From NCBI GenBank assembly GCA_049968235.1, contig JBMFRC010000008.1, positions 32,001 through 96,000 on the forward strand: a stretch of DNA of 64,000 nt, read 5' to 3'. The first letter of the stretch is position 1. Each line of letters begins with the position of its first letter. A program made the position numbers and the translations under genes. The stretch is from Candidatus Hydrogenedens sp. (GTDB taxonomy: Bacteria; Hydrogenedentota; Hydrogenedentia; Hydrogenedentales; Hydrogenedentaceae). The notes beneath the pieces are model-generated. The model saw only the letters and a list, made by a program, of their open reading frames with translations. It did not search any database and was not told the origin of the DNA. Shown in pieces: positions 1,241 to 44,501 of the stretch.

Positions 1241-3250
1241 TTACTCCTTTATTTTTTCATAGATAACAAAAAGAGCAGACGGTTTCTCTGGGAGTGTTAG
1301 TGGGACACCATATTCCATTAATTCTTTCCCTGTGAGCTCTAAAGGTTGTGCATTTTTATAAACTGGGGTGATACGGTATTTTGCTTTTAATTCCAAACCA
1401 TGTAAGGGCAATCTTATACTCTCTGTCTTGGCTTCCTCACGACGGAATGCTTGCACAACACCTGTACCTCTACTTGCTACATTAAATTGCCATGCTATCC
1501 ACACATTTTTTTCAAGTGAATACGGAGTCAACGGATAGTAATCTCCATAATAATTTTCAGCGTAAAGTTTTCGTTGTTCTATAATATTCACTAATCTTTG
1601 CCAATCTATGTCATCCCGTCTCTGGTCAAAACAGGCAGTAAAACTGGGACACAATACACTCATCACTTCATAGTCTGATATTTTAGAAGTCCCTGTGCCA
1701 AAAAACGGAAACCACTCGGACAATGCCCAGGTATGGCATTGATTCCCAGTAGGTTCCATAATATAATCACTTCGTAATAAAGGCACAGCTCGTCGTAAAG
1801 TTTCTAAATCATTTCGTCTACCACCACTGGCACAGGAATCTATCAACATATTAGGATGACGACGCAACAATTCATCCCAGTATGCGAAATAACCTTCCAC
1901 ATGCCGTATTTCGGTAATCCCCTGTCTATCCGGAGTATCATTCTTTCGCCAGAAATCCAGCGGGTCCATATTGAAATCCTGCCGGTATAAATCAATTCCC
2001 TCTTTTGTAAGGATACTGTCTATATGGTTTATTAGCCATTCTCTTACCTGTGCATCTCCAAGGTTCAATAATCCCCCTCCCTTCCCACCAAGAATCCACT
2101 CTGGATAATTTTCTGTAAGCCATGTCCCCGCATGCACGCGTTCTGGCTCAAACCATACAAGTATTTTGACCCCTTTGTTGTGGGCAAAATCGGAAATAGG
2201 TTTAAATCCTCCAGGGAATCGAGTTTGGTCAACTTCCCATGTCCCTGTTTTAGGCCATTGCCCGTCGCAGGGATACCACCCGGCATCCATCCACCAGTAG
2301 TCAAGAGAAAAACCCCGCTGAAGATATTTTTCAATAAACATTAATTGTGTATCAGTAGTAGCATTAACCATTTCGCCATATTGATGAGAACTGCATGCGA
2401 AAAGTATCGGGAGTTTTGGAGGGTTTCCATAAGGATGTGGCAAATTATGTGCAATCATCCATTGCCTCCATAGGTTCTGTCCGCGTTGCTTATCACCGGA
2501 ATAGAACAAAAGCACAACCATAGGTCCGCGAACTTCTTCTCCAGGATATAAAGTGAAATGAGTAAGTTCTTGACCTCCTTGAATAAATAAAACACCATCC
2601 TTATCCCGATAAAACCGACAGGACCACTGCCCTGCCCAACTGATAGCGAAAATCAGCCCCGCATTCTCTCTTTGAAAATTGAAATAAGGAAATGTTATCT
2701 GTGTTGGTCGTCCCCCTGTATTTGCAAGTTTTATTTCAGAATCCGTATTTATCGGTTCAATTATAGGTTCATAACTATCCGCAGTGCAGTTATCCCCTTT
2801 ATTCCGATGAAGGACAGTTCGCTGATTCTTAAACTCGGTAAATATGGTATCTATTGTTTTTAACTCTTGCAGTATAGGGGTATTTTTATCTCCACCGTTC
2901 TTATAGTAAGCAGTCCATTCAATTACAGGGAAGTGTAAATATTGAACAGCCTTATATCGCACAACCAAACCTGTTTTGGTATGGGTTAATTTCAAGGTAG
3001 AGGTTATTATATCATTCCCTTTGTCTGTTGTAATTTCCCGTGTCCATTCTTGTAAATCCTGATTTGCGGGGGTATCACCAATAAGCAATGAGCCAGGAAA
3101 TAAATCTGCAGACTGGGATACTTTCTCACCGAACCAGCGTTCGAAAATTGTGCTGGCTGATGATAATTCTTCCGGCAAAGGACTCGCTTGTGCATATAAT
3201 AAACAACTTAAACTCACCAGAAAGGCATGTAGAATAAATATTCTTTTCAT
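1241..3250 (-). CDS. secreted GH36-family alpha-galactosidase-like glycoside hydrolase
   Basis: N-terminal signal peptide. GH36-like blocks: DYWWMDAGWY (cf. DDGWF), ILVWFEPERV (cf. GLWFEPEMV), nucleophile region GIDLYRQDFNMD (cf. KWDMN), and acid/base region SCASGGRRND (cf. CSSGGGR). Confidence 0.65.
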   Translation of the reverse strand: MKRIFILHAFLVSLSCLLYAQASPLPEELSSASTIFERWFGEKVSQSADLFPGSLLIGDTPANQDLQEWTREITTDKGNDIITSTLKLTHTKTGLVVRYKAVQYLHFPVIEWTAYYKNGGDKNTPILQELKTIDTIFTEFKNQRTVLHRNKGDNCTADSYEPIIEPINTDSEIKLANTGGRPTQITFPYFNFQRENAGLIFAISWAGQWSCRFYRDKDGVLFIQGGQELTHFTLYPGEEVRGPMVVLLFYSGDKQRGQNLWRQWMIAHNLPHPYGNPPKLPILFACSSHQYGEMVNATTDTQLMFIEKYLQRGFSLDYWWMDAGWYPCDGQWPKTGTWEVDQTRFPGGFKPISDFAHNKGVKILVWFEPERVHAGTWLTENYPEWILGGKGGGLLNLGDAQVREWLINHIDSILTKEGIDLYRQDFNMDPLDFWRKNDTPDRQGITEIRHVEGYFAYWDELLRRHPNMLIDSCASGGRRNDLETLRRAVPLLRSDYIMEPTGNQCHTWALSEWFPFFGTGTSKISDYEVMSVLCPSFTACFDQRRDDIDWQRLVNIIEQRKLYAENYYGDYYPLTPYSLEKNVWIAWQFNVASRGTGVVQAFRREEAKTESIRLPLHGLELKAKYRITPVYKNAQPLELTGKELMEYGVPLTLPEKPSALFVIYEKIKE

Positions 3251-3290
3251 ATAAAAGCATCCCTTTTTTCAGAATTTTTTGTCCATCGAT

Positions 3291-4178
3291 TTAGTTGTCA
3301 AATTGAATATCGTTGGTAATTTCGATGAGAAATTCTACATCCTGTTTTAGTATCTCCCTTTTGTGAATAGGATCAGAGAAATTTCCCAGAGACTCATCTT
3401 CAATACATAGAACACCATCATAATTGGATTTTTTTAGTTCTGTTAATATCGTTTCTATATTTATATCCCCTTTAAATATGGGACAAACATAGGTAGCATA
3501 TTCCCAGCCTATTTCACGATAAATTTCTTGTGCGGTTTTTGGATAGGCAATATTTTTAATATGTGTGTGCTTTGCATAAGGAGCAAGCAATTTTAATATT
3601 GCTTCCGTTTCGGATAAAGGGTAACCTCGCCAGTAAAAATTCCCCAAATCTAAGGTTAACCCCAAACGAGGGTCACCAACGGTGTGAACAACAGATAAAA
3701 GAAAAATTGGATTATTCCCTTCTTTTCCATGGTTTTCAATACCTAATCGAATAGAGATGTTCTCTATTTCAGAGAACAGTTCCGAAATAATATTGGAAAA
3801 TAATTCAACTTTTTCTCCAAAGGAATATAAATGTTCTTGCTGAAGGGATGAATCTATACGGATAACTTTACTTCCCAATGTGTAAGCAATATTTACTGCA
3901 TTTTTAAACCAGTCTATAGATTGTTCCTTCGTATGCATACTTACATCAAAATCTGTAAGTAATGCTGATACAAAAACTTTTTTTTCTTGTAACTCTTTTT
4001 TATATTTAAATAATTGCTCTTCCGATTTTATTGAAACCTTGTGGCTTGAATTTAAAGAGTATGATTGAAAATCATTGTTTAAATGTAATTCAAACTGATT
4101 AAGTTTTAAATAATTAAGTCCCTCTATAATAGATGAAAATACTTCCAATAAGATTTCATCACGAATAGCAATATTCAT
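3291..4178 (-). CDS. sugar phosphate isomerase/epimerase (xylose isomerase-like TIM barrel)
   Basis: 295 aa. Contains GIENHG, HTHIKN and LCIEDE blocks consistent with AP-endonuclease-2/xylose-isomerase-like TIM barrels. Overlaps the upstream gene by 4 nt (ATGA). Confidence 0.45.
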   Translation of the reverse strand: MNIAIRDEILLEVFSSIIEGLNYLKLNQFELHLNNDFQSYSLNSSHKVSIKSEEQLFKYKKELQEKKVFVSALLTDFDVSMHTKEQSIDWFKNAVNIAYTLGSKVIRIDSSLQQEHLYSFGEKVELFSNIISELFSEIENISIRLGIENHGKEGNNPIFLLSVVHTVGDPRLGLTLDLGNFYWRGYPLSETEAILKLLAPYAKHTHIKNIAYPKTAQEIYREIGWEYATYVCPIFKGDINIETILTELKKSNYDGVLCIEDESLGNFSDPIHKREILKQDVEFLIEITNDIQFDN

Positions 4179-4840
4179 CCGGTATCTCCTCCATTTGTTT
4201 TTGATGCTACCGCTAAAAATTTTTTAATAAGAAAAACCCTATATTCTTCGTGTGATAAAGGTCCTATATGATACCTATTAACATGCACAAAACCATCCTC
4301 ACTTAATGGGAAGGAGTCTGCCGAATCTATTTCAATAGGTGATAGGACACGAACAAGAAATGAGGAATTATTCAAAATAGTTGCTACTGAAGAAGGGGTA
4401 AAGAAATGCAGTCGGGTTTTACTTTCTTCAAGGGTGTCATCCCATGTTCCCTGAAGCAATTTCAACACATGTCGGTAGTATTGCACATTGGGTTCTGCAG
4501 TTATAAGGATACCGTCATTTATTAAAACACGGTTGAGTTCATTAATCGTTTGTGCCAGATTAAAACAGTCCGAAAGAATATTTTCTCCGATAACAAGCGT
4601 GAATGAATTATTTTCAAATGGGAGTTCTTCTCTACCCAATGTTATATGATACAGGCAGTTAAACTGGTCTTCACAAGGAACATTTTGAGTATCATCAGTT
4701 ATTATCCCTTTAAGAGAAGATCCCTGTTTCTGCTTTACCTGTAAAATAAATTTCTCGTCAAAAAAATTAATTGTTAAAACTCTGGAAAAGATATTGGCCA
4801 ATAAATGAATAATTTCGTCTTTCAGAACATTTTCTATCAT
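4175..4840 (-). CDS. hypothetical protein, methyltransferase-like C-terminal region
   Basis: 221 aa. Has a LVIGENILSDCF...LNRVLINDGILITAEPN block resembling motifs II/III of class I SAM methyltransferases, but no glycine-rich motif I. Translationally coupled between ald and the TIM-barrel gene. Confidence 0.3.
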   Translation of the reverse strand: MIENVLKDEIIHLLANIFSRVLTINFFDEKFILQVKQKQGSSLKGIITDDTQNVPCEDQFNCLYHITLGREELPFENNSFTLVIGENILSDCFNLAQTINELNRVLINDGILITAEPNVQYYRHVLKLLQGTWDDTLEESKTRLHFFTPSSVATILNNSSFLVRVLSPIEIDSADSFPLSEDGFVHVNRYHIGPLSHEEYRVFLIKKFLAVASKTNGGDTG

Positions 4841-4846
4841 TGTATT

Positions 4847-5959
4847 TTAGGGTCTTTCAGGAATTTCTTCCCAATTCATCTTAAATGCTTCTGCAACTGC
4901 TTTATAAGTAATTTTACCTTTGTATAAGTTTACACCTTTACGAAGTGCTTTGTCATGTGCAATTGCTTTATCAATGCCCATATCCGCAATCATCAAGCCA
5001 TAACCCAATGTAACATTGGTTAACGCATAAGTAGAAGTTCGGGGAACAGCACCGGGCATGTTGGTAACACAGTAATGAATGACATCATTGACACGATAAG
5101 TAGGATTATCATGGGTAGTGGGCTTTGAAGTTTCAATACATCCTCCCTGGTCAATTGCAATATCAACAATAGCAGAATTGGGTTTCATATTTTTTATCAT
5201 ATCTTTTGTAACCAGACGAGGTGCTTTAGCACCCGGAACCAGTACAGAACCAATCAACAAATCCCCCTGAGATACTTCTTCCGCAATATTAGCACGATTA
5301 GACATTAAAGTTGTCAGACGTCCCTGCATAATGTCTTGCATATATCTTAATCGTGCAGGATTAATATCAATAACCGTTACATGAGCGCCCATCCCTACTG
5401 CGATAGTGCAGGCATTGGAACCTGCTACACCGGCTCCTAGTATGACAACTTTTGCTGGTTTTACACCAGAAACACCGCCTAACAAAACCCCCATACCTCC
5501 ATAAGTGGCTTCCAAACAACGAGCCCCTATTTGAACGGATAAACGACCCGCAACTTCACTCATAGGTGTCAATAATGGAAGAGAACCATCATCCAATTGT
5601 ATGGTTTCGTATGCTACACCAATTATCTGTTGTTTTAATAATCCACGCGTTAATGCTTCATTCGATGCCAGATGAAGATAGGTATATAAAATCTGTCCCG
5701 GTCTGCATAGTTTTATTTCGTTTTCCAGAGGTTCTTTTACTTTGATTATCATGTCCGCCTGTTCCCAGATTTGTTTTGCAGATGAAATAATTTTTGCTCC
5801 GACATCACGATAATTTTCATCTAAAATTCCACTCCCCAATCCAGCCCCTTTTTCCACAAGGACGGTATGCCCATGTGCAATAAAAGCAGAAACTCCCGAA
5901 GGCACAATACCTACTCTTTTTTCACCCGGCTTAATTTCTTTTGGTACTCCAATAATCAT
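4847..5959 (-). CDS. ald: alanine dehydrogenase
   Basis: 370 aa. N-terminus MIIGVPKEIKPGEKRVGIVP, Rossmann motif VVILGAGVAG, canonical Ald length. Confidence 0.9.
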   Translation of the reverse strand: MIIGVPKEIKPGEKRVGIVPSGVSAFIAHGHTVLVEKGAGLGSGILDENYRDVGAKIISSAKQIWEQADMIIKVKEPLENEIKLCRPGQILYTYLHLASNEALTRGLLKQQIIGVAYETIQLDDGSLPLLTPMSEVAGRLSVQIGARCLEATYGGMGVLLGGVSGVKPAKVVILGAGVAGSNACTIAVGMGAHVTVIDINPARLRYMQDIMQGRLTTLMSNRANIAEEVSQGDLLIGSVLVPGAKAPRLVTKDMIKNMKPNSAIVDIAIDQGGCIETSKPTTHDNPTYRVNDVIHYCVTNMPGAVPRTSTYALTNVTLGYGLMIADMGIDKAIAHDKALRKGVNLYKGKITYKAVAEAFKMNWEEIPERP

Positions 5960-15081: not shown

Positions 15082-16578
15082 TTATGATTTTTTCAAGGGT
15101 TCCCCCAGAAGATAGCGATGAATAGACATTGCAGCCGTTTTTGCCTGTCCCATGGCACTGATTACAGTTGCAGCACCGGAAACAATATCGCCTCCTGCAA
15201 AAATACCAGGGACGGAAGTTTCCATTGTTTCAGGATCAACAACAATAGTGCCATGTTTCGTAGTTTGTAATTCAGGCATAGATTTAGGTATAAGCGGATT
15301 GGGTTGATTCCCTATAGCAATAATAACCGTATCCACCTCCATAATAAATTCGGACCCTTTAATAGGGACAGGTCTGCGTCTCCCCGAAGAATCAGGCTCG
15401 CCTAATTCCATTCGGATACATTCCATCCCAACAACACGATGCCGTTCATCACCAAGGATTCGAACAGGGTTATTTAATAGAAGCATCTTCACTCCTTCTT
15501 CTTCTGCATGATGAATTTCTTCGGCACGGGCAGGCATTTGTTCGCGGGCACGACGGTAAACAATGCTTACATCTCCCCCTAAACGCAAAGCGGTACGTGC
15601 TGAGTCCATAGCCACATTGCCACCGCCGATTACAGCAACTTTATTCCGTTTGATAGGGGGTGTATCGTATTTTGGGAAAAGGTAGGCTTTCATCAGATTA
15701 GAGCGAGTGAGATATTCATTGGCAGAATAGACGCCTACTAAATTCTCACCGGGAATCCCCATAAAGGAAGGGAGACCTGCTCCCGTCCCAATAAATACCG
15801 CATGATAACCTTCTTCATCGAACAATTCCCGAATTGTACAATTTCTTCCAATGACAAAATCCATCACAAATTCGACACCCAATCGTTTGAGATATGCCAC
15901 CTCTGCGCGGACAATTTCTTTAGGAAGCCGGAATTCGGGTATGCCATACATAAGTACTCCACCGGGTTCATGTAAAGCCTCAAACACAGTAACTTCATGC
16001 CCCAATTTGATAAGGTCACCAGCGACCGTAAGCCCTGCGGGACCTGCACCAATTACAGCCACCCGCTTACCTGTTTTTGGGAGAATTTCAGGTAGTTGTA
16101 CTTGTCCACTGGCTCGTTCAAAATCCGCACAAAAACGCTCTAATCTTCCAATTGCTACGGATTCTCCTTTGACACCTAATATACACCCGCTTTCACATTG
16201 TTCTTCTTGTGGGCATACTCGACCACAAACCGCAGGTAACGCATTTTGTAGTTTAATATGCTGAGCCGCCTCGATGAATTTACCATCTTTGATAAGGCGG
16301 ATAAATCCTGGAATATCAATATGGACGGGACAACCTTCAACACAACCCGGCTTTTTGCAATCAAGGCAACGGGACGCTTCCAGTATAGCCAATTCCGGAG
16401 TATAACCGAACGGCACTTCTTCAAAATTATACCGTCGGTCTTCCGGTGCTTGTTCGGGCATAGGTTGTCGTGGAACTTTTCCCTTTTTTTTAGGTTTTGT
16501 TTCCTGTGAAAGGCTATCTTGTGTCTTTATTTCAGAATTTTCGGGTTGTGTCATGGCTTCTAACCTCTTTCCATACAA
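15082..16578 (-). CDS. GltD-like FAD/NAD(P)H oxidoreductase with 4Fe-4S (SudA/NfnB-like, glutamate synthase small-subunit family)
   Basis: 498 aa. Two N-terminal Cys clusters. Dinucleotide-binding motifs VAVIGAGPAGL and VAVIGGGNVAMD. Overlaps the upstream gene by 19 nt. Confidence 0.8.
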   Translation of the reverse strand: MYGKRLEAMTQPENSEIKTQDSLSQETKPKKKGKVPRQPMPEQAPEDRRYNFEEVPFGYTPELAILEASRCLDCKKPGCVEGCPVHIDIPGFIRLIKDGKFIEAAQHIKLQNALPAVCGRVCPQEEQCESGCILGVKGESVAIGRLERFCADFERASGQVQLPEILPKTGKRVAVIGAGPAGLTVAGDLIKLGHEVTVFEALHEPGGVLMYGIPEFRLPKEIVRAEVAYLKRLGVEFVMDFVIGRNCTIRELFDEEGYHAVFIGTGAGLPSFMGIPGENLVGVYSANEYLTRSNLMKAYLFPKYDTPPIKRNKVAVIGGGNVAMDSARTALRLGGDVSIVYRRAREQMPARAEEIHHAEEEGVKMLLLNNPVRILGDERHRVVGMECIRMELGEPDSSGRRRPVPIKGSEFIMEVDTVIIAIGNQPNPLIPKSMPELQTTKHGTIVVDPETMETSVPGIFAGGDIVSGAATVISAMGQAKTAAMSIHRYLLGEPLKKS

Positions 16579-19097
16579 GAACAGTGATGGTAACGATGTT
16601 CTCCCTGAACGGTTTTAGAGGGCATGGTAAAACTTATCGCTTGAATTTCTTCCGCACTATAGGCTTCTCTCCGGTCGCGAACCTCATCCCAATCAACCTG
16701 ATGTGCATCGAAGAAAGGTCCATCAACACATGCAAATTTTGTTTCCCCGTTTATACTGATTCGACAGGCACCACACATACCGGTACCATCTAACATAATA
16801 GGATTTAATGCACAAACCGCTTTTATACCTGTATTGCGGGTTTCTTCTGCAGTAATCATCATCATAAAGGGACATCCCACCGCAACAATCAGGTCTATTT
16901 TCTCACCCGACTGAATTAATCGCTTTAATGCATCAATGGCATGTCCCTTTTCTCCTAATGATGCATCTACAGTTGTTTGAATAAATCGGTCACTGACAGT
17001 AGAGAGTTCTTCTTCGTAATATGCAAGATAATGACTTCGTGCTTCAGAGATTACGATGACTTTATTTCCTTGTTCATGTAATGAACGAGATAAACAGACT
17101 ACTGCACCAATTCCATAACATCCACCTAATATAGCGACTGTTCCATAATGCTTAACTTCAAAAGCAGTACCCAATGGACCTACAACATGAGCAAGACATT
17201 CACCTTCAGATACAGAAATCATTTTCCGACTGGACAAACCCTTTTCTTGTATTACCAATGTAATGGTCCCTTTTTCTTCATCCCAATCACTTAAAGTATA
17301 AGGAATGCGTTCTGAGTTCTCATCTACCATTACGATAACAAATTGTCCAGGTAGTGCCTTTTTCGCAATAGCAGGAGCATAAATAACAAACTCATAGGTA
17401 TTAGGGACTAGTTCCCTACGTGATAAAACCATAAATGGATACGGTGTCTCAGGTAATTTTATTTCTGCTTTTATCGATGTTTTCTCTTCATGGTCTTTGC
17501 CCTCTTCAAAATTCCTCACTGCCACTAAACCGGACACATAATCTTCTACCTTATGTCCTTTGAACCATTCTCGGCGTTCCTTTAAGTTTTGCGATGCGGG
17601 AGGTGCTGTTTGTCGATCAAGATACAATTGGGCTGTATCTAAATCTAATTCACGCGATATTTCTTCAACAGATGTATATTCTTTCCATGCCTCTGAAGAT
17701 AGGGCTCTGGCTATTTGTTGAATAATAATCCATTCAGGTATTGCATCTCCCGGTGGATTGCATGCTTTTATCAAGGGACGCAACCGATTATTTCTATCCA
17801 GCACTGTCCCTGAAACTTCAGCAAAAATGGCGGTCGGATACACCACATCCGCAGATTTTGTCCATTCCGACGGAAAGACATCCAGAGCAATAACCACATC
17901 AAAATTACTCCGAAATTCTTGTGGGATAAATAAACCTGTAGTAATAACCGCTTTAACTTCCGTGGGGATATTTGTAATTCTTGCAAAACCTTTCTTATCC
18001 GGAACAATCTCGAAATAATACGGAGATTGCATTACCTCCTGTGTAAATTTCTTAAATATATGTCTATCTTCCAATGTACTGGATGTATCACAAACAAAGG
18101 CAAATTTCTTACCTGTATAATTCTTTAATAACTCCGCACATCGATGTATGGTTTCTTCAGATGAAACTGGTCGTAATACTTTGTTAATTCGTATTTGTGG
18201 TGAACGAAGGCGATGGGGACTGTTTAAAAATTCAGGGATTGCAAAATGTCCTAAAACACATACAGGTAGATGGTCGTAAACACCCTTAACCATAACCGAT
18301 TTATTATTTACCGCATATACTGCCAGAGCACAGGCTTCATCACAGTAGATGCAGGTGGTTTCAATTTTTGTATCCGGTCGTCCAAACCATTTTGCATATC
18401 GGTCTGATAAAGTCCCCGTAGGACATACATCCACACATGAACCGCAGAAAGTGCAACCCGCTTCATGTAAGTTTCTTCCGAAAGCCTGTCCGATATGGGT
18501 CTGACTGCTACGATGAATAAAATCAATTACGGATTTACCCTGATGTAATTTACAAATGCGAACACATCTTCCGCAAAGAATACATAGATTTAAATCTCGG
18601 TCAATAAAAGGTTCAGAACGCTCTATGGGTTTGTAATGATATTTGGGAGACACCAAAATTTCTGCCAGACCCAAATCTGCGGATAGTTCCCGTACTTCAC
18701 ACACATCTTTGTTGTTACAGGTATGACAACCTGTTGTTGCCCCTACCTTTTCCGATTTTGGTCGATATTTATCACACAATTCGCGTCGCTCACACACAAG
18801 GCAGGCACTGGGATGTTCTAACATCATCAGTCCCAGAATATTTCTGCGTAATAGACGCAAACTTTCCGTTTGCGTATGAATAACCATCCCTTCAGCAATC
18901 GGTGTGGAACAGGATGTAGGATAACCTCGCATACCTTCCACTTCTACAATACATATACGACAGGCACCGAAAGGTGGTAACGCAGGATGCGTGCATAGAT
19001 GGGGAATGGATATTCCATGCCGTAAAGCACATTCTAATATCGTTTCACCTGCTCTACCTTCAAGTGTTTTTCCATCAATAACTACATTCACAATCAA
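16560..19097 (-). CDS. fusion protein: NuoG/HndD-like Fe-S subunit (2Fe-2S + His-ligated 4Fe-4S + 2x4Fe-4S + truncated molybdopterin-type domain) fused to SudB/NfnA/PyrK-like FAD–NAD–2Fe-2S domain
   Basis: 845 aa. Residues 1–80 form a plant-type ferredoxin (CTHP...C..C). HPSACLVCERRELCD matches the NuoG His-Cys cluster. Ferredoxin clusters CILCGRCVRIC and CTFCGSCVDVCPTG. The ETTCIYCDEAC cluster marks a molybdopterin-oxidoreductase-like segment. The C-terminal ~300 aa are PyrK-like (PYPFMVLS...GPLGTAF...CGACRISINGETKFACVDGPFF). Confidence 0.72.
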   Translation of the reverse strand: MIVNVVIDGKTLEGRAGETILECALRHGISIPHLCTHPALPPFGACRICIVEVEGMRGYPTSCSTPIAEGMVIHTQTESLRLLRRNILGLMMLEHPSACLVCERRELCDKYRPKSEKVGATTGCHTCNNKDVCEVRELSADLGLAEILVSPKYHYKPIERSEPFIDRDLNLCILCGRCVRICKLHQGKSVIDFIHRSSQTHIGQAFGRNLHEAGCTFCGSCVDVCPTGTLSDRYAKWFGRPDTKIETTCIYCDEACALAVYAVNNKSVMVKGVYDHLPVCVLGHFAIPEFLNSPHRLRSPQIRINKVLRPVSSEETIHRCAELLKNYTGKKFAFVCDTSSTLEDRHIFKKFTQEVMQSPYYFEIVPDKKGFARITNIPTEVKAVITTGLFIPQEFRSNFDVVIALDVFPSEWTKSADVVYPTAIFAEVSGTVLDRNNRLRPLIKACNPPGDAIPEWIIIQQIARALSSEAWKEYTSVEEISRELDLDTAQLYLDRQTAPPASQNLKERREWFKGHKVEDYVSGLVAVRNFEEGKDHEEKTSIKAEIKLPETPYPFMVLSRRELVPNTYEFVIYAPAIAKKALPGQFVIVMVDENSERIPYTLSDWDEEKGTITLVIQEKGLSSRKMISVSEGECLAHVVGPLGTAFEVKHYGTVAILGGCYGIGAVVCLSRSLHEQGNKVIVISEARSHYLAYYEEELSTVSDRFIQTTVDASLGEKGHAIDALKRLIQSGEKIDLIVAVGCPFMMMITAEETRNTGIKAVCALNPIMLDGTGMCGACRISINGETKFACVDGPFFDAHQVDWDEVRDRREAYSAEEIQAISFTMPSKTVQGEHRYHHCSCMERG

Positions 19098-19121
19098 ATC
19101 ACCTCTTTAATATATAACCCT

Positions 19122-21044
19122 TTAATCCGTTTTCTTCTTTCTTGCCTTTATGGGTTCATAACGAACTCGAGACCCACTACGGCGATATACCGCCGAATAC
19201 ATAGACGGACAAACCCGCAGACATTGACCACAATGTATACATTTTCCCTGGTCAATTACATGGGCCTCTTTCCTTTTACCGGATATCGCTTCTACCGGAC
19301 ATGCCCTGGCACACATGGTACAACCCGTACAACGCTCCGCATCAATGTGATAAGAGATAAGAGAACTACAAACAAAAGCACGGCACTCCTTCGCTTTAAT
19401 ATGCTCTTCATATTCATGTCGGAAATAACGCAGTGTAGATAATACGGGATTGGGTGCGGTCTGTCCTAATCCACATAAGGAGCCTTGTTTAATCGTTTGA
19501 GCCAGTGTTTCCAAACGAATAATATCCGTTAAATCCCCTTTACCAGCACAAATGCGTTCAAGAATACCTAACATAGCACGTGTACCAACACGACAGGGGG
19601 TACATTTACCGCAGGATTCCGCCTGAGTAAATGATAGGAAATAACGGGCAATATCCACCATACAGTTGTCTTCATCTAAAACAATCATTCCGCCCGAACC
19701 CATGATACTACCTGCTTTTGTCAGGGATTCATAATCAACGGGCAGGTCTAACATTTCTGACGGAATACATCCTCCGGATGGACCTCCGGTCTGGACTGCT
19801 TTCACTTCTTTATCATTTAAAATACCTCCACCAACATCAAATATTACTTTTCGCAGAGGTATGCCCAAAGGGATTTCAACCAATCCTGTTCGTTTAATTT
19901 TTCCTGCTAGAGCAAAGGTCTTTGTCCCCTTGCTGTTTTCATTTCCATACTGCACATACCAATCTGCACCTCGATGGAGAATTAAAGGCAGATTTGCTAA
20001 AGTTTCGACATTCTGAATAATTGTGGGCTTACCCCATAATCCGCTAATAGCCGGAAAAGGGGGACGGGGACGGGGCATACCCCGGTTCCCTTCAATAGAT
20101 GCAATCAGAGCGGTTTCTTCTCCACAGACAAAAGCTCCTGCCCCTTTCTTAACCGTAATGTCAAAAGAAAAACCACTCCCCAATATATTTTCCCCTAATA
20201 AACCATGTTCATACATCTGCTGAATGGCAATTTCTAATCGCCGTATAGCTAGAGGATATTCCGCACGACAATACACATATCCATGCCGAGCACCGATAGT
20301 ATATCCTGCTATCAACATTCCTTCCAATACCGAATGCGGGTCTCCTTCCAGGACCGAACGATTCATAAATGCACCGGGGTCCCCTTCATCCGCATTACAA
20401 ATAAGATACTTCCCTTCGGCGGATGTTTCTCGGGCAAAAGACCATTTCTTCCATGTGGGGAATCCCGCACCTCCACGACCTCGCAAACCTGATTTTTTTA
20501 CTTCCTCCAACACTGCATCTGCACCAATATTTAACGCCTTTAAAAAACCACGATAACCATTCTGGGCTAAATAATGGTAGAAATTTTCAGGGTCAATCAA
20601 TCCGCAATTGCGAAGTATATTGCGGACTTGATGCGACAACATCGGATGCCTTGTAATCGGAGGCAATCCTCGAAACTCATCCATACTCATTACTCCAATG
20701 AGTTTTTCTTCCCATACCCCTTCTTCTAAAAAAATCCGATTTACAAATTCCTCGACATTTTCAGGCTTTATAGGACCATAACATATAGGAATCCCTCCCG
20801 GAGGTTGAACCATAATAATAGGTTCTAACACACAGGGACCCATACAGCCCACTTCAATAAACATTGCATATTTTTTATTTTGTATCAAAAGTTTTTTAAT
20901 AATCTCTTCGGTTTCAAGGGCACCTGCGGCTCGACCACAGGTTGCTGAACCTACATAGACCACAGGAATCGTATTACTTTCTATCTTTCCCCATTCTTCC
21001 TGTGCTCGTTCATATAAAATCTCCATAGTATCATTTGCTATCAT
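19122..21044 (-). CDS. NuoF/HoxF-like NAD(H)-binding FMN Fe-S subunit with N-terminal thioredoxin-like and C-terminal 2x[4Fe-4S] ferredoxin domains
   Basis: 640 aa. FMN-site motif GRGGAGFPTWKKW. Cluster ESCGKCTPCRVG. C-terminal CTGCTMCARACP and CIHCGQCLRVCP. Confidence 0.85.
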   Translation of the reverse strand: MIANDTMEILYERAQEEWGKIESNTIPVVYVGSATCGRAAGALETEEIIKKLLIQNKKYAMFIEVGCMGPCVLEPIIMVQPPGGIPICYGPIKPENVEEFVNRIFLEEGVWEEKLIGVMSMDEFRGLPPITRHPMLSHQVRNILRNCGLIDPENFYHYLAQNGYRGFLKALNIGADAVLEEVKKSGLRGRGGAGFPTWKKWSFARETSAEGKYLICNADEGDPGAFMNRSVLEGDPHSVLEGMLIAGYTIGARHGYVYCRAEYPLAIRRLEIAIQQMYEHGLLGENILGSGFSFDITVKKGAGAFVCGEETALIASIEGNRGMPRPRPPFPAISGLWGKPTIIQNVETLANLPLILHRGADWYVQYGNENSKGTKTFALAGKIKRTGLVEIPLGIPLRKVIFDVGGGILNDKEVKAVQTGGPSGGCIPSEMLDLPVDYESLTKAGSIMGSGGMIVLDEDNCMVDIARYFLSFTQAESCGKCTPCRVGTRAMLGILERICAGKGDLTDIIRLETLAQTIKQGSLCGLGQTAPNPVLSTLRYFRHEYEEHIKAKECRAFVCSSLISYHIDAERCTGCTMCARACPVEAISGKRKEAHVIDQGKCIHCGQCLRVCPSMYSAVYRRSGSRVRYEPIKARKKKTD

Positions 21045-21595
21045 TGCTCAACACCTGCTTTATTATCTTCTTTTTGACGATATTCTTTAATTACTTCACG
21101 AACTTTTTCCTGTGTCATCTGGGCATAAACCTTGCCATTAACTGCCATCACAGGTGCTAACGCACAACAACCGACACATGCAACCCGTTCTAATGTAAAC
21201 AAACCATCTGCTGTAGTATGTCCCGGTTCTATATTTAATTCCTCACGCAACGCTTCTAACACCACAGAAGAACCACGAACATGGCATGCCGTACCCTGAC
21301 ATATCTGAATAACATATTTACCCGGCGGTGTAAATTTGAACTGGGTATAAAACGATGCTACTCCATAGATTTCCGAAGCAGATACTCCTAAATATTCGGA
21401 CATTGCATCAACCGCAGGAGATGAAATATAACCATAATGCTCTTGTACCTCCTGAAGCAATGGAATAATACTACTACGCCGGGCAGGGTATTTTTGAAAT
21501 AATTGTTGCAAACCAAAAACCAATTCATTCTTTGATGAACTCAACGATAAATTCCTTCTCGTTGTATAGCGAAAGGCATAACTAAATTGAAGCAA
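21041..21595 (-). CDS. NuoE/HoxE-like 2Fe-2S thioredoxin-fold subunit
   Basis: 184 aa. Motifs CQGTACHVRG and CVGCCALAPVMAVNG. 4-nt overlap with the NuoF-like gene. Confidence 0.8.
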   Translation of the reverse strand: MLQFSYAFRYTTRRNLSLSSSKNELVFGLQQLFQKYPARRSSIIPLLQEVQEHYGYISSPAVDAMSEYLGVSASEIYGVASFYTQFKFTPPGKYVIQICQGTACHVRGSSVVLEALREELNIEPGHTTADGLFTLERVACVGCCALAPVMAVNGKVYAQMTQEKVREVIKEYRQKEDNKAGVEQ

Positions 21596-21688
21596 AAACG
21601 GAGCAAAGAATTATACCATGACCAAAATAAAAAAGTAAAACGATCTACTTTTACTGTTCTATTCGTAGGAGAAATAATATATATTTAT

Positions 21689-41460: not shown

Positions 41461-41709
41461 AATAGATGTAAAGTGGTAAAGTAAACAGTTTAATATTGAA
41501 AACAAAAGGGTGTCCGAAGGCATCGAAAGGAGGTGACCCGGTAAATGTCAGTTCGGACCATATGTAGTAATAAAAGTTGAATATAAATGCATAGGTATGT
41601 TGTAGGGACGCAACATAAAACCGAAGCATATTCGTTGTTTTGATTAAGGGACAATCAAAACAACACAAGGCAAGGACGCAACAAACATTAACTCATGGAG
41701 GAATTTGTT

Positions 41710-42525
41710 ATGGGTCTTAGAATTAACACCAATGTACCGTCATTGAATGCGGCACGCGTTCTACGGCGTTCAACGCTGGATTTGAACAAAACATTGGAAC
41801 GGCTTTCAAGTGGGTTGAGAATCAACCGTGCAGCCGATGATGCAGCAGGTCTTGCTATTGCAGAAGCGTTTCGTTCAATTGTTCGTGGTTCAAATGTAGC
41901 TCAACGGAATGCACAGGACGGTATTAGTCTGGTACAGACCGCAGAAGGTGCATTAAGCGAAACCACAAATATTTTGCAACGAATTCGCGAATTGGCAGTA
42001 CAAGCAGCAAACGGCACTCAGAGCGATACCAACCGCGCTGCAATTAACACAGAAGTTCAACAGTTATTACAACAAATCGACAAGATTGCCACCGACACCG
42101 AATTTAATGGAATCTATATATTGAGCGTCTCTCAAACAGTAAATTTACAGGTAGGTGCTTTCAGCGGGCAAGTAATGGCAATAACTGTTGGTGGGGCAAA
42201 AACGAATGACCTTTCTGTTGATATTGTAAATGTATCTACAATGGCAGGTGCGGTATCTGCATTGTCCTTAGTAGATAATGCTCTAAAGAGTGTAAATACA
42301 CTCCGCGCTACTCTGGGTGCTTATCAGAATCGTCTTGAATTTACAATTAACACACTGGCGATTCAGGAAGAAAATTCGGCTGCTTCGGAGAGTGCTATTC
42401 GTGATGCGGACATAGCACAAGAGACAATACGGTTTACCCGGAACCAGATATTGGTAAATGCAGGTACTTCCGTACTTGCCCAATCGAATGTCGTTCCACA
42501 AACTGCATTGCAGCTGTTAAGATAA
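41710..42525 (+). CDS. flagellin (short, ~271 aa), paralog 1
   Basis: N-terminus MGLRINTN...LSSGLRINRAADDAAGLAIAE. C-terminus ...VLAQSNVVPQTALQLLR. The likely true start is the internal Met at 41710, with a GGAGG Shine-Dalgarno 8 nt upstream; the ORF track begins at 41695. Confidence 0.92.
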   Translation: MGLRINTNVPSLNAARVLRRSTLDLNKTLERLSSGLRINRAADDAAGLAIAEAFRSIVRGSNVAQRNAQDGISLVQTAEGALSETTNILQRIRELAVQAANGTQSDTNRAAINTEVQQLLQQIDKIATDTEFNGIYILSVSQTVNLQVGAFSGQVMAITVGGAKTNDLSVDIVNVSTMAGAVSALSLVDNALKSVNTLRATLGAYQNRLEFTINTLAIQEENSAASESAIRDADIAQETIRFTRNQILVNAGTSVLAQSNVVPQTALQLLR

Positions 42526-42615
42526 TAAAACTTTAACAGTAAAAGGTGTGTTCAAAATGAAACAATTAAGGGCAGGGAAAGCCCAAAGAAATAAGTAACT
42601 CAAGGAGGAATAACT

Positions 42616-43431: not shown

Positions 43432-43524
43432 TTGATGGGAAACATAAGGTTTGATTAAAATTGAATTACTCTTGGACAAAAAACTCATGGATGGGATAAC
43501 AATAACTCATGGAGGAATTTAGTT

Positions 43525-44340: not shown

Positions 44341-44350
44341 AGTTACTCTC

Positions 44351-44376
44351 GAGGGCAGGGTATATCCCCTGCCCTC
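44351..44376 (+). terminator. GC-rich hairpin (10-bp perfect stem GAGGGCAGGG/CCCTGCCCTC, 6-nt loop) after flagellin 3
   Basis: Read directly. Begins 10 nt after the flagellin-3 stop codon. The downstream U-tract is weak. Confidence 0.5.
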
Positions 44377-44501
44377 TGTCTGGAACATATATTATCAGTA
44401 TTAACCTTTTCAGGGATGGCGTGAAAGACCTGAAAGCATGTCTGATAATTAAAAGAAAGGGAATTCTGGATAAGTGTTAAACACTCAAGGAGGTAAGAAC
44501 T

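What the first reader, a model, noticed from the sequence alone, without database searches (positions are those of the whole stretch)
16560..19097. Single polypeptide fusing a NuoG-like N-terminal Fe-S domain to a SudB/PyrK-like flavoprotein domain
The 845-aa ORF begins like NuoG/HndD. It has a plant-type 2Fe-2S, the His-Cys cluster HPSACLVCERRELCD, two CxxCxxCxxxCP clusters, and a vestigial molybdopterin-oxidoreductase segment. It ends with a complete PyrK/SudB-type FAD–NAD–2Fe-2S domain (CGACRISINGETKFACVDGPFF). The fusion hard-wires the Nuo-type and Nfn-type electron paths together. Its start codon overlaps the GltD-like gene by 19 nt, consistent with a dedicated SudA partner.
Basis: seen in the sequence. 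Interest (0 to 1): 0.55.

Follow-up and report, generated by a model that had tools for sequence, protein, structure and literature searches.

The report
Bfu–NfnSL hybrid electron-bifurcating enzyme subunit
The 845-residue protein is real and conserved: it joins the iron-sulfur "input" subunit of one family of energy-coupling redox enzymes (Bfu/HydABC type) to the small subunit of a second family the literature calls unrelated (NfnSL), and sits in a four-gene operon that puts both kinds of electron-bifurcation site into one predicted complex, a combination I could not find described.

Summary
It is not an assembly chimera. More than 119 full-length homologues at 53-92% identity from independent assemblies share the architecture.

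The context changes the reading. The gene is third in a tight operon of four:
- a NuoE-like BfuC
- a BfuB of the true bifurcating HydB type
- this BfuA::NfnS fusion
- a canonical NfnL

The cassette recurs in at least 17 loci across bacterial and archaeal phyla. It occurs fused, or split exactly at the variable linker, so the fusion is one variant of a wider BfuABC+NfnSL family.

Two signatures mark the family:
- a second CxxCx5C motif beside the His-ligated cluster of BfuA
- a remodelled nicotinamide pocket in NfnS (GGC[Y/F]G, an acidic residue after strand 2, and GC in place of GP)

NfnL is indistinguishable from stand-alone NfnL.

Best reading: this is a Type-3-like Bfu enzyme whose third-substrate module is a whole NfnSL, wired through the NfnL [4Fe-4S] pair into A3 as in solved NfnABC. 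That would place two bifurcation sites in series. The identity is secure. The wiring and stoichiometry are inferred. The claimed 19-nt overlap is probably a 5-nt gap. I rate it a new variant of a known kind.

The parts
21610..21639 (-). Promoter-like site (TTTACT-18-TATAAT with a TG extension) just upstream of the first gene of the operon
   Evidence: Consensus scan, 10 of 12 matches. This is a consensus match only. The number of such sites in the region is no higher than in shuffles.
21041..21595 (-). bfuC: NuoE/HydC-like thioredoxin-like [2Fe-2S] subunit. This is the maximal ORF and the true start may lie downstream. It overlaps bfuB by 4 nt (ATGA).
   Evidence: Pfam 2Fe-2S_thioredx E 2e-55 and NCBIfam NuoE family. 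Junction sequence.
19122..21044 (-). bfuB: HydB/BfuB-type FMN/NADH subunit. It has an N-terminal thioredoxin-like domain, the [4Fe-4S] B1 motif, an H-x5-C-x4-C (B2/Zn) site and a C-terminal 2x[4Fe-4S] ferredoxin domain.
   Evidence: Pfam Complex1_51K, NADH_4Fe-4S and Fer4 x2. Sequence. Best solved relatives are bifurcating BfuB subunits: 7t2r_B 5e-227, 9bov_B, 8oh5_B, 9n5u_B.
16560..19097 (-). bfuA::nfnS fusion ORF, the finding itself. 845 codons from TTG 19097; the start is probably GTG 19091.
   Evidence: AF2 model with pLDDT 84 and pTM 0.79.
18867..19091 (-). A1 [2Fe-2S] domain (residues 3-77; C35, C46, C49, C63)
   Evidence: Pfam Fer2_4. Ligands invariant in 120 homologues.
18774..18815 (-). 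His-ligated [4Fe-4S] motif H95-x3-C99-x2-C102-x5-C108. I read this as the A3 cluster of Bfu nomenclature.
   Evidence: The A3 assignment is my inference from the Y-shaped A1-A4 scheme.
18699..18728 (-). Extra C124-H-T-C127-x5-C133 motif, a second copy of CxxCx5C 15 residues after the first. It is a candidate additional metal or cluster site next to A3.
   Evidence: Invariant in 120 homologues. Present in all fused and split relatives and in 136 of 149 top representatives. Absent from solved FdsA, HydA and NiFe-BfuA, where alignments show a gap or a single motif. Low pLDDT in the model.
18408..18611 (-). Ferredoxin-like 2x[4Fe-4S] domain (A2 and A4; C172/175/178/182 and C215/218/221/225)
   Evidence: Pfam Fer4_Nqo3 and Fer4_7. 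Ligands invariant.
18258..18368 (-). Molybdop_Fe4S4-type [4Fe-4S] site (A5; C249, C252, C256, C280)
   Evidence: Weak Pfam match, but all four Cys are invariant.
17526..18257 (-). Truncated, non-catalytic molybdopterin-oxidoreductase-like domain (residues 281-524)
   Evidence: The Pfam Molybdopterin match covers only profile positions 285-352. High pLDDT. Long relatives keep the full domain but lack the Cys/Sec-His active-site motif.
17436..17525 (-). Variable, low-confidence linker (residues 525-554). Split relatives are broken here.
   Evidence: Alignment. pLDDT below 50 at 535-545. Stop and restart codons in L006 and L008.
16623..17435 (-). NfnS-type domain with an FAD-binding barrel (ERIPYT, GLSSRK), a nucleotide-binding domain and an Asp/Cys3 [2Fe-2S] (D770, C775, C778, C790). 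Family signature residues are C660 (17118-17120), Y661, E685 (17043-17045) and C742 (16872-16874).
   Evidence: 5jca_S E 3e-74. Foldseek TM 0.90. NCBIfam PRK06222. Signature table. Coordinates checked.
15082..16554 (-). nfnL: canonical NfnL/GltD-like subunit of 490 aa from ATG 16554. The maximal ORF from TTG 16578 overlaps the fusion by 19 nt.
   Evidence: Pfam Fer4_20 and Pyr_redox_2. 4ylf_B E 2e-173 and 5jca_L E 6e-158, with the CGRVCPQEEQCE and GIPEFRLP motifs retained. Start-site sequence.

Best explanation
The ORF encodes the electron-input subunit (BfuA) of a Bfu-family (HydABC-type) bifurcating complex, fused through a flexible linker to the small subunit (NfnS) of an NfnSL-type transhydrogenase.

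Together with BfuC, BfuB and a separate canonical NfnL, it should form one four-subunit enzyme. In this enzyme a complete NfnSL plays the role that the hydrogenase or tungsten 'SL' subunits play in Type-3 Bfu enzymes.

Proposed mechanism (inferred):
1. NADP(H) reacts at the NfnL FAD.
2. The NfnL low-potential branch, its two [4Fe-4S] clusters, does not hand electrons to free ferredoxin. It hands them to the BfuA chain at the His-ligated A3 cluster, probably by way of the extra 3-Cys site next to it.
3. From there the electrons pass A2-A1 to the B1-FMN-C1 site of BfuBC. That site exchanges them with NAD(H) and ferredoxin.
4. The NfnL high-potential branch still runs through the NfnS [2Fe-2S] and FAD to a second NAD(H) site.

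Two mechanistically different bifurcation sites would then act in series. The net reaction would be about 4 NADPH + 3 NAD+ + 2 Fd(ox) <-> 4 NADP+ + 3 NADH + 2 Fd(red). That is a 'geared' transhydrogenase using half as much ferredoxin per NADPH as Nfn or NfnABC.

Shown: the domains, the cofactor ligands, the operon, and conservation of the cassette and of the signatures.
Inferred: complex formation, the wiring, and the stoichiometry.

My confidence in the identity and architecture is about 0.9. The confidence given below is for the series-wiring mechanism.
For: Architecture:
- Domain and ligand map.
- BfuB is of the bifurcating type.
- NfnL is canonical. It is far closer to bifurcating NfnL (581 and 530 bits) than to the NfnL-like domain of NfnABC (364, 352 and 301 bits). 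It keeps the Glu-type CPQEEQCE motif rather than the Lys of NfnABC.

Functional unit:
- The genes are tightly packed in one operon.
- The same cassette sits in different genomic surroundings in at least 17 loci. These come from Hydrogenedentes, Phycisphaerales, Dehalococcoidia, Desulfobacterota, Aminicenantes, Eubacteriales and Thermoplasmatota.
- Four of five randomly sampled unfused double-motif BfuA genes are followed directly by nfnS.

Wiring:
- In solved Csac NfnABC the NfnL-like domain feeds FAD-A7-A6-A3-A2-A1. Its [4Fe-4S] pair therefore enters at A3.
- NiFe-ABCSL also enters via A3.
- The window protein and all its relatives carry an extra invariant 3-Cys motif immediately next to the A3 motif.

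NfnS branch kept in use: the FAD motifs and the Asp/Cys3 ligands are invariant.

Energetics: with E' of NADH -280, NADPH -380 and Fd -500 mV, only the low-potential Nfn branch can supply electrons negative enough for the Bfu site. The series scheme equilibrates at -335 mV and is reversible.

Precedent: a Bfu module coupled to a second bifurcating module (HdrA) has been proposed for Bam-Bfu.
Against: - No structure of the complex exists, and I could not obtain model coordinates, so no inter-cofactor distance was measured.
- NfnL shows no family-specific columns against stand-alone NfnL. A permanently docked distal-cluster surface might be expected to leave a trace.
- The only universal NfnS changes lie in its nucleotide pocket (C660, Y/F661, E/D685, C742). 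The series scheme does not explain them, and they could mean the NAD(H) site is altered or lost.
- Some relatives replace the BfuB ferredoxin domain by a GltD-like module. Under this wiring those enzymes would have no obvious ferredoxin site.
- One double-motif BfuA (L088) has no nfnSL nearby.
- The extra motif has only three conserved Cys, and it could be a structural Zn site like those found in other Bfu enzymes.
Confidence: 0.35

Rival explanations
1. Same wiring, NfnL clusters into A3, but the NfnS branch does not turn over with a soluble substrate. NfnS would serve as scaffold, tether or electron overflow. The complex would then simply be another way of building NfnABC/StnABC. Net reaction: 2 NADPH + NAD+ + 2 Fd(ox) <-> 2 NADP+ + NADH + 2 Fd(red), with bifurcation only at the Bfu flavobicluster.
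For: - NfnABC shows that an NfnL-like FAD can act as a plain NADPH entry to a Bfu core.
- The NfnS nucleotide pocket is remodelled in every Bfu-linked NfnS.
- Pfu NfnII is a precedent for an NfnS whose NAD site is occluded while the subunit is retained.
- Dead-end cluster branches are tolerated in NfnA.
Against: - All NfnS cofactor ligands and FAD motifs are invariant over deep divergence. That argues for a working redox path.
- NfnL keeps every feature of the bifurcating type and none of the NfnABC type: the Glu motif rather than Lys, and high identity to Tma and Pfu NfnL.
- An open high-potential sink next to a crossed-potential FAD would trap electrons unless it were emptied.
Confidence: 0.25
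2. The high-potential (NfnS) branch is the one wired to BfuA. C660 and C742, perhaps together with the BfuA 3-Cys motif or E/D685, would bind a new Fe-S centre in the former nicotinamide pocket and link the NfnS FAD to the A chain. The NfnL distal cluster would remain a ferredoxin site. The net reaction would be roughly NADH + 6 Fd(red) + 4 NADP+ -> 4 NADPH.
For: - The only universal family-specific changes are in the NfnS nucleotide pocket and in BfuA, with none in NfnL.
- NfnS is the part physically fused to BfuA.
- Relatives whose BfuB lacks the ferredoxin domain would still have a ferredoxin site on NfnL.
Against: - With the potentials the scheme equilibrates at -445 mV. It is strongly dissipative and effectively one-way, unlike known bifurcating enzymes.
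- Electrons from the high-potential branch cannot drive the Bfu site in the reverse direction.
- An acidic residue after strand 2 (E/D685) is what a classical NAD-specific pocket has.
- No fourth conserved ligand was identified. H125, H637 and H719 are conserved only in the close clade.
Confidence: 0.15
3. The NfnS* pocket reduces a different high-potential acceptor. The C660/C742 pair next to the flavin would act as a redox-active dithiol/disulfide, acting on a disulfide, a polysulfide or a protein thiol. The enzyme would then couple NADPH oxidation to reduction of X, NAD+ and ferredoxin.
For: - The two Cys strictly co-occur in loops that line the nicotinamide site: present in every Bfu-linked NfnS examined (30 sequences) and in none of the 12 canonical ones.
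- Pfu NfnII/Xfn is a precedent for an NfnSL whose third substrate is not NAD and remains unknown.
- SudAB homologues show polysulfide reductase side activity in the literature (cited).
Against: - No candidate substrate gene is conserved next to the cassette. The flanks differ in every locus.
- Proximity of the two Cys to each other and to the FAD was not measured.
Confidence: 0.15
4. There is no functional hybrid. The ORF is an assembly or annotation chimera, or two independent enzymes (BfuABC-like and NfnSL) that merely share an operon.
For: - No reads were available to check the junction.
- The linker is variable and of low confidence.
Against: - 119 of the 120 best homologues are full length (812-866 aa) with the same architecture. 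They come from NCBI, ENA, JGI and Logan assemblies, on contigs up to 935 kb.
- The gene order is conserved across phyla.
- BfuA has no catalytic site of its own. The Mop domain is truncated, or lacks the Cys/Sec-His motif in long forms. A BfuABC without NfnSL would therefore have no third substrate.
- The family signatures co-vary with the association.
Confidence: 0.04

Closest known systems
NfnABC / StnABC (Nfn-Bfu, Type 1 Bfu transhydrogenase; S. ovata 8oh5, C. saccharolyticus 9bov, T. sibiricus 9n5u)
   Same: - BfuBC core of the bifurcating type: BfuB scores 710-750 bits to these B subunits.
- NuoG-like BfuA with A1-A5 and a non-catalytic Mop-like remnant.
- An NfnL-type FAD/NADP(H) module with two [4Fe-4S] clusters as the third-substrate input.
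- In the solved enzymes that module enters the chain at A3.
   Different: - Here NfnL is a separate, canonical subunit (Glu-type cluster motif, 581 bits to Tma NfnB against 301-364 bits to the three NfnA-type chains). It is not a domain inserted into BfuA.
- A complete NfnS with FAD and Asp/Cys3 [2Fe-2S] is present and fused to the C-terminus of BfuA. NfnABC has no NfnS.
- BfuA carries an extra CxxCx5C motif.
NfnSL / NfnAB (T. maritima 4ylf, P. furiosus NfnI 5jca; SudAB)
   Same: - The C-terminal 270 residues are an NfnS (E 3e-74, TM 0.90).
- The downstream gene is an NfnL (E 2e-173).
- The nfnS-nfnL gene order and the cofactor ligands are all retained.
   Different: - NfnS is fused or tightly linked to a BfuA and co-encoded with BfuBC.
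- The NfnS nucleotide pocket differs: GGC(Y/F)G for GGG(V/I)G, E/D for G after strand 2, GC for GP, and loss of D637.
- None of the four fusion patterns A-D listed by Liang et al. 2019 matches.
NiFe-HydABCSL and WorABCSL (Type 3 / Type 2 Bfu enzymes with separate S and L catalytic subunits)
   Same: - The logic is BfuABC plus extra subunits that carry the third-substrate site.
- BfuA keeps A3, which is the entry point used by NiFe-ABCSL.
- BfuB is most similar to the NiFe-Bfu B subunit (7t2r_B).
   Different: The added module is itself a bifurcating flavoenzyme (NfnSL), not a hydrogenase or a tungsten enzyme. One of its subunits is fused to BfuA.
Bam-Bfu (BamBCDEFGHI benzoyl-CoA reductase)
   Same: It is a proposed case of a BfuABC module coupled to a second bifurcating flavin module within one complex.
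   Different: The second module there is HdrA-type with a tungsten site and reduces benzoyl-CoA. Here it is NfnSL with NADP(H).
NuoG (complex I) and FdsA (NAD-dependent formate dehydrogenase)
   Same: The N-terminal Fe-S fold and the Mop-like remnant. FdsA 6tg9_A aligns to residues 3-319 at E 1e-55, and Foldseek hits NuoG and FdsA.
   Different: - No nuo membrane genes in the window, and no Mo-binding domain or active-site Cys/Sec-His.
- The partner flavoprotein is HydB-type with a ferredoxin domain.

Membership tests
BfuABC family (HydABC-type bifurcating enzymes) | BfuB with the FMN/NADH domain, the B1 [4Fe-4S], a C-terminal 2x[4Fe-4S] domain (B3/B4), an N-terminal thioredoxin-like domain (B5) and a His/Cys B2 site | tested here: met
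   The upstream 640-aa protein has Complex1_51K, NADH_4Fe-4S and two Fer4 domains at 566-614. It also has the N-terminal C36...C67xxxC71, the motif EEH-x5-C-x4-C and a GGPSGG loop. The best PDB matches are all bifurcating B subunits.
BfuABC family (HydABC-type bifurcating enzymes) | BfuC: NuoE-like subunit with one [2Fe-2S] (C1) | tested here: met
   Pfam 2Fe-2S_thioredx E 2e-55. CxxxxC...CxxxC is present in the sequence.
BfuABC family (HydABC-type bifurcating enzymes) | BfuA N-terminal domain with the Y-shaped A1-A4 clusters | tested here: met
   All 16 ligands (C35/46/49/63; H95/C99/102/108; C172/175/178/182; C215/218/221/225) are invariant in 120 homologues. The fold matches NuoG, FdsA and NiFe-BfuA.
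BfuABC family, Type 3 (extra catalytic subunits, A3 present) | The third substrate is handled by additional subunit(s), and BfuA retains A3 | tested here: met
   The A3 His motif is present, and NfnL is a separate gene product. NfnS is separate in split relatives. Whether fusing S to A warrants a type of its own is a matter of naming.
BfuABC family (HydABC-type bifurcating enzymes) | Tightly coupled reduction of NAD+ and ferredoxin by a third substrate | not testable with these tools
   This needs purified enzyme.
NfnSL (NfnAB) transhydrogenase | NfnS: FNR-like FAD domain plus a [2Fe-2S] ligated by Asp and three Cys | tested here: met
   ERIPYT and GLSSRK motifs, with D770/C775/C778/C790. 5jca_S E 3e-74 and TM 0.90.
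NfnSL (NfnAB) transhydrogenase | NfnS NAD(H) pocket as in the characterised enzymes (GGG(V/I)G(V/I)A loop, G after strand 2, AVGP loop) | tested here: not met
   The pocket is replaced by GGC(Y/F)G, E/D and GC in all Bfu-linked NfnS. The 12 canonical NfnS, including Pfu and Tma, have none of these. The consequence for NAD(H) binding is unknown.
NfnSL (NfnAB) transhydrogenase | NfnL: FAD/NADPH domains, two [4Fe-4S] with the Glu-containing motif, and Arg at the flavin N5 | tested here: met
   CGRVCPQEEQCE and GIPEFRLP are retained. 4ylf_B E 2e-173. There are no family-specific columns against 41 canonical NfnL.
NfnSL (NfnAB) transhydrogenase | A self-contained two-subunit (or NfnS-NfnL fused) enzyme | tested here: not met
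   NfnS is fused to BfuA and co-encoded with BfuBC. It is not among patterns A-D.
NfnABC / StnABC (Type 1 Nfn-Bfu) | An NfnL-like domain inserted inside BfuA between the A1 domain and A3, with a Lys-ligated A7 cluster and no NfnS | tested here: not met
   There is no insertion in BfuA. NfnL is a separate 490-aa protein with the Glu-type motif, and NfnS is present.
Respiratory complex I NuoG | Encoded and assembled with NuoF lacking a ferredoxin domain and with the nuoA-N membrane arm | tested here: not met
   No nuo genes are present among the window ORFs I annotated; 13 ORFs of 150 aa or more between 43525 and 63302 were not scanned against Pfam. The partner flavoprotein is HydB-type. TIGR01973 NuoG scores 176 bits against a cut-off of 470.
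Molybdenum/tungsten formate dehydrogenase alpha subunit (FdsA/FdhA) | A complete Mo-bisPGD binding domain with the catalytic Cys/Sec-His | tested here: not met
   Only the last ~70 profile positions of Molybdopterin match, and there is no Molydop_binding domain. Long relatives have the domain but no Cys/Sec-His motif: 1 of 106 by pattern. That pattern test is crude.
PyrK (dihydroorotate dehydrogenase B electron-transfer subunit) | Equivalog-level similarity and a pyrD partner | tested here: not met
   The PyrK equivalog models score 69-102 bits against cut-offs of 219-314. The neighbour is NfnL, not PyrD.

The most novel reading that the evidence does not exclude
This would be a natural enzyme in which the two mechanistically different bifurcation devices work in series within one complex. 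These devices are the crossed-potential FAD of NfnL and the FMN/Fe-S flavobicluster of BfuBC. An extra Fe-S site next to A3 would join them.

The result would be a non-canonical 4 NADPH: 3 NADH: 2 Fd stoichiometry. With the pool potentials, NADPH could then push an acceptor to about -680 mV. Run the other way, NADPH could be made with half the usual ferredoxin cost.

The family would be a large, uncharacterised branch of Bfu enzymes in uncultured anaerobes. The invariant Cys pair in the NfnS pocket might in addition mark a new cofactor or substrate site.
Probability: 0.3. Interest if true: 0.85.

Novelty: new variant of a known kind. Interest (0 to 1): 0.62.

Why it matters
Recent structural papers stress that NfnSL and NfnABC are 'two unrelated enzymes' doing the same job, and that Bfu enzymes bifurcate by a different, still unsettled mechanism. 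This operon, with its many fused and split relatives, shows that evolution has joined a complete NfnSL to a complete BfuABC.

If the complex assembles as predicted, it has three consequences:
- It is a ready-made system for asking how two bifurcation sites communicate.
- It predicts a testable change of stoichiometry, a redox 'gear'. That would alter how NADPH, NADH and ferredoxin pools are balanced in Hydrogenedentota, Planctomycetota, Chloroflexota, Aminicenantes, Desulfobacterota and some archaea.
- It affects annotation. These genes are currently named 'sulfide/dihydroorotate dehydrogenase-like FAD/NAD-binding protein' or 'NuoG', so metabolic reconstructions would score them as Nfn or as complex I parts.

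Even in the conservative reading (Stn-like net reaction) it is a third, independent way of building an Nfn.

Tried and rejected
1. Measuring Cys-Cys and Cys-cofactor distances in the AF2 model. The tool returns no coordinates and none are in /data. The key geometric questions stay open.
2. The C-terminal His-rich CxC tail (HHCSC) as the missing ligands for a new cluster. The tail is not conserved in deeper relatives, and similar Cys occur in canonical NfnS tails. Rejected.
3. H125, H637 and H719 as universal ligands. They are conserved only in the close clade. Rejected as family-defining.
4. The long relatives as true formate dehydrogenases, which would make formate the third substrate. They have a full Molybdopterin domain but no Cys/Sec-His motif. 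Rejected, with the caveat that this was a pattern test.
5. Looking for an NfnL docking signature. No discriminating columns were found.
6. The hybrid as an evolutionary intermediate towards NfnABC. In a crude NJ tree the Tsib NfnA L-domain is a distant outgroup, and Bfu-linked NfnL are interspersed with canonical ones. There is no support either way.
7. The genome-contig scan. It is not a census.
8. Literature. Eight full-text searches and nine papers read gave no description of a Bfu+NfnSL cluster or BfuA-NfnS fusion. The library lacks most subscription journals (Demmer 2015 was not held), so absence is not proof.
9. The extra motif as strictly Nfn-specific. One sampled double-motif NuoG-like protein (L088) has no nfnSL and a short NuoF.

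Full report
**1. What is in the sequence**

The ORF 16560-19097 is open for 845 codons on the minus strand.

Pfam, NCBIfam and PDB sequence searches give the same map:
- Residues 3-77: a Fer2_4 [2Fe-2S] domain.
- Residues 95-108: the His-ligated cluster motif HPSACLVCERRELC.
- Residues 163-230: a Nqo3-type ferredoxin domain with two four-Cys motifs.
- Residues 244-280: a Molybdop_Fe4S4-type site.
- A Molybdopterin match confined to the last ~70 positions of the profile.
- Residues 525-554: a linker.
- Residues 555-825: a complete NfnS/SudB domain. NCBIfam PRK06222 scores 331 bits against a cut-off of 220. Pfu NfnI small subunit 5jca_S gives E 3e-74, and Tma NfnA 4ylf_A gives E 5e-58.

An AF2 model built on 89 sequences has mean pLDDT 84 and pTM 0.79. 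Confidence is low only at 120-128, 155-166, the linker and the C-terminal tail. Foldseek returns 5jca_S for the C-terminal part (TM 0.90 on the target) and FdsA, NuoG and NiFe-BfuA for the rest. Window coordinates of every part were checked by translation.

Two details of the finding need correction.
- The GltD-like gene is downstream of the fusion ORF. Its most likely start is ATG 16554, preceded by GGAAAGAGG, which leaves a 5-nt gap. The 19-nt overlap arises only from an upstream in-frame TTG.
- The fusion itself probably starts at GTG 19091, as its homologues do.

**2. It is not a chimera**

A search of the 90%-clustered protein collection returned 120 best hits. Of these, 119 are 812-866 aa and cover 97-100% of the query at 53-92% identity. 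They carry source names from Candidatus Hydrogenedentes, Planctomycetota and Dehalococcoidia.

The closest cluster alone has 12 members from NCBI, ENA, JGI and Logan, on contigs up to 238 kb.

All cofactor ligands are invariant in this set. The window organism is probably a member of Hydrogenedentota; this is inferred from the names of the nearest homologues.

**3. The operon**

Four genes lie head to tail on the minus strand:

| Gene | Coordinates | Product |
|---|---|---|
| bfuC | 21595-21041 | NuoE-like protein |
| bfuB | 21044-19122 | 640-aa NuoF-like protein |
| bfuA::nfnS | 19097-16560 | the fusion |
| nfnL | 16554-15082 | GltD-like protein |

The first two overlap by ATGA. A promoter-like site lies just upstream of the first gene, but this is a consensus match only.

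The NuoF-like protein is not of the complex I type.
[quoted passage not shown] These distinguish bifurcating BfuB/HydB subunits.
- Its best solved relatives are the B subunits of NiFe-HydABCSL, Csac NfnABC, StnABC, Tsib NfnABC and FeFe-HydABC, at E 5e-227 to 1e-185.
- NuoF and FdsB follow at 1e-126 or worse.

The GltD-like protein is a canonical NfnL.
- It gives E 2e-173 to Tma NfnB and 6e-158 to Pfu NfnI-L, against 1e-107 or worse to the NfnL-like domain of NfnABC.
- The CGRVCPQEEQCE motif and the GIPEFRLP arginine are retained.

The rest of the window annotated so far holds housekeeping, transport, regulatory and flagellin genes, with no nuo or hydrogenase genes; 13 ORFs of 150 aa or more between 43525 and 63302 were not scanned.

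**4. The cassette is a conserved unit, fused or split**

Neighbourhoods of distant homologues (L001, L003, L004) show the same four genes amid unrelated flanks. A tblastn survey of 84 fetched loci found the cassette in at least 17. These include Hydrogenedentes, Phycisphaerales, Dehalococcoidia, Desulfobacteraceae (gene order permuted), Desulfobulbaceae, Aminicenantes, Eubacteriales and a Thermoplasmatota archaeon.

Several forms occur.
- **Short fused**, as in the window.
- **Short split**. In L006 a TAA is followed by an SD sequence and a TTG restart. In L008 a TAG is followed by an ATG. Both breaks fall exactly at the linker.
- **Long fused** (P0125, P0127, P0128; 1023-1080 aa).
- **Long split**. 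BfuA keeps a full Molybdopterin domain and nfnS is a separate gene. The long forms lack the Cys/Sec-His motif of formate dehydrogenases, so BfuA is a scaffold and not a catalyst.

At 50% clustering the short fusion collapses to about three clusters. In contrast, 136 of the 149 best representatives carry the BfuA signature described below. Of five unfused ones sampled, four are followed immediately by nfnS, and by nfnL where the contig allows. So the fusion is one branch of a much larger BfuABC+NfnSL family, and 'hard-wiring' is not essential to it.

**5. Family signatures**

(a) BfuA. Directly after the His-cluster motif comes a second CxxCx5C. In the window it reads TTG-C124-H-T-C127-NNKDV-C133.
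- It is invariant in the 120 homologues and present in every fused or split relative down to 34% identity.
- Solved NuoG-like proteins have only one copy. FdsA aligns with a gap here, and HydA and NiFe-BfuA align their single motif to it.
- Only three Cys are universally conserved.

(b) NfnS. Every Bfu-linked NfnS differs from the canonical sequences at four points:
- GGC(Y/F)G, where the 12 canonical NfnS including Pfu and Tma have GGG(V/I/L)G.
- E or D at the end of strand 2, where canonical NfnS has G (A in one).
- GC(T/P)(F/Y)MM, where canonical NfnS has GPxxMM.
- No D637.

The FAD motifs and the Asp/Cys3 cluster ligands are unchanged. In a crude NJ tree the canonical NfnS form one clade and the Bfu-linked ones the remainder. 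Split L006 nests among fused forms, which suggests secondary fission.

(c) NfnL has no discriminating columns.

**6. Literature**

- Schut et al. 2022 classify Bfu enzymes into Types 1-4. The third substrates listed are H2, formate, NADPH (NfnABC), F420, aldehydes, CO, pyruvate, menaquinone, benzoyl-CoA and H2O2. No NfnSL module appears.
- Liang et al. 2019 list four Nfn architectures, none with a NuoG-like domain.
- The 2025 structural papers call NfnSL and NfnABC unrelated.
- The Hydrogenedentota Bfu paper treats hydrogenases only.
- Further searches found nothing.

The library is incomplete, so I rate the finding as a new variant of a known kind and not as certainly unreported.

**7. Mechanism**

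Two published facts guide the wiring.
- In Csac NfnABC the path is FAD-A7-A6-A3-A2-A1 to B1-FMN-C1. The [4Fe-4S] pair of the NfnL-like domain therefore enters BfuA at A3.
- NiFe-ABCSL also enters via A3.

I equate A3 with the His-ligated cluster. This is my reading of the Y-shaped scheme and was not verified in the texts. The family-specific 3-Cys motif lies next to that cluster in the sequence.

The most economical model is therefore that the NfnL distal cluster docks at this site and passes electrons to A3. Because NfnS keeps all its cofactor ligands and NfnL is of the bifurcating type, the NfnL FAD would still have its high-potential outlet.

With E' of NADH -280, NADPH -380 and Fd -500 mV, the three wirings compare as follows:

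| Wiring | NADH : Fd : NADPH | Equilibrium potential | Behaviour |
|---|---|---|---|
| Series, NfnL branch into A3 | 3 : 2 : 4 | -335 mV | Reversible; run backwards it could drive an acceptor to about -680 mV |
| Opposite, NfnS branch into BfuA | 1 : 6 : 4 | -445 mV | Dissipative, one-way |
| Silent NfnS branch | 1 : 2 : 2 (canonical) | -390 mV | Canonical Nfn net reaction |

Only the low-potential branch can feed the Bfu site reversibly, which is why I prefer the first.

The unexplained points are:
- the NfnS pocket changes
- the absence of an NfnL docking signature
- the relatives whose BfuB carries a GltD-like module instead of the ferredoxin domain

My probabilities are:
- series: 0.35
- Stn-like: 0.25
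- NfnS-wired: 0.15
- new acceptor at the Cys pair: 0.15
- no functional hybrid: 0.04
- the remainder unassigned

**8. Verdict**

It is wrong about 'Nuo-type' and about the overlap, and it understates the context.

What is present is a subunit of a predicted BfuABC-NfnSL hybrid, a combination of two bifurcating enzyme families that current literature treats as separate. Identity and architecture are well supported. Assembly, wiring and stoichiometry are inferences that a multimer model, a purification and a stoichiometry measurement would settle.

Noticed in passing
L001 4849-7968; also L005 about 2849-5746 and L006 about 2781-5675: In some relatives BfuB (1039 aa in L001) carries a C-terminal GltD-like module (Fer4_20 + Pyr_redox_2) in place of the 2x[4Fe-4S] ferredoxin domain. 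The cassette then encodes two GltD/NfnL-like flavoproteins. A similar 'DPD_II + FAD' BfuB is described for subtype I FeFe hydrogenases of Hydrogenedentota (PMC11406978).
   Followed up: partly
window 18699-18728 (residues 124-133): A second CxxCx5C motif directly follows the His-cluster motif. It is invariant in the family and has no counterpart in solved NuoG, HydA or FdsA chains. Only three Cys are conserved, so the fourth ligand and the metal ([4Fe-4S], [3Fe-4S] or Zn) are unknown.
   Followed up: partly
L006 7609-7620; L008 3167-3181: Two relatives are split into bfuA and nfnS by a single in-frame stop at the linker, followed within 1-3 codons by a new start with its own Shine-Dalgarno sequence. 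This points to independent fission (or fusion) events at the same point.
   Followed up: yes
L088 4832-9721 (protein P0200): A NuoG-like protein with the double Cys motif lies next to NuoE and a short NuoF (563 aa, no ferredoxin domain), with no nfnS or nfnL. The motif is therefore not strictly tied to NfnSL.
   Followed up: no
L090 122-1703: A pyruvate:ferredoxin-oxidoreductase-like TPP gene and a small 2x[4Fe-4S] ferredoxin sit directly upstream of bfuC-bfuB-bfuA*-nfnS in one relative. This recalls the 'Por-Bfu' clusters of Schut et al. 2022.
   Followed up: no
window 41695-45317 (+): Four tandem ORFs of 271-276 aa. The first two are flagellins by Pfam (Flagellin_N + Flagellin_C). The other two have the same length and were not tested.
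   Followed up: partly
window 16563-16622 (residues 826-845): The fusion ends in a His-rich tail with a CxC motif (HRYHHCSC). The first Cys (C839) is conserved in 91% and the second (C841) in 72% of close homologues, but neither in deeper relatives. The model gives this region very low confidence.
   Followed up: partly
window 19122-21044, BfuB residues 36-71: [quoted passage not shown] This matches the 3Cys+Glu site that binds Zn instead of a [2Fe-2S] in Csac NfnB (PMC11829005), so the 'B5' site here may be Zn.
   Followed up: no
window 15082-21595 against the whole window: The operon is somewhat richer in G+C (42%) than the window as a whole (38%). Several genes in this stretch use TTG or GTG starts.
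   Followed up: no
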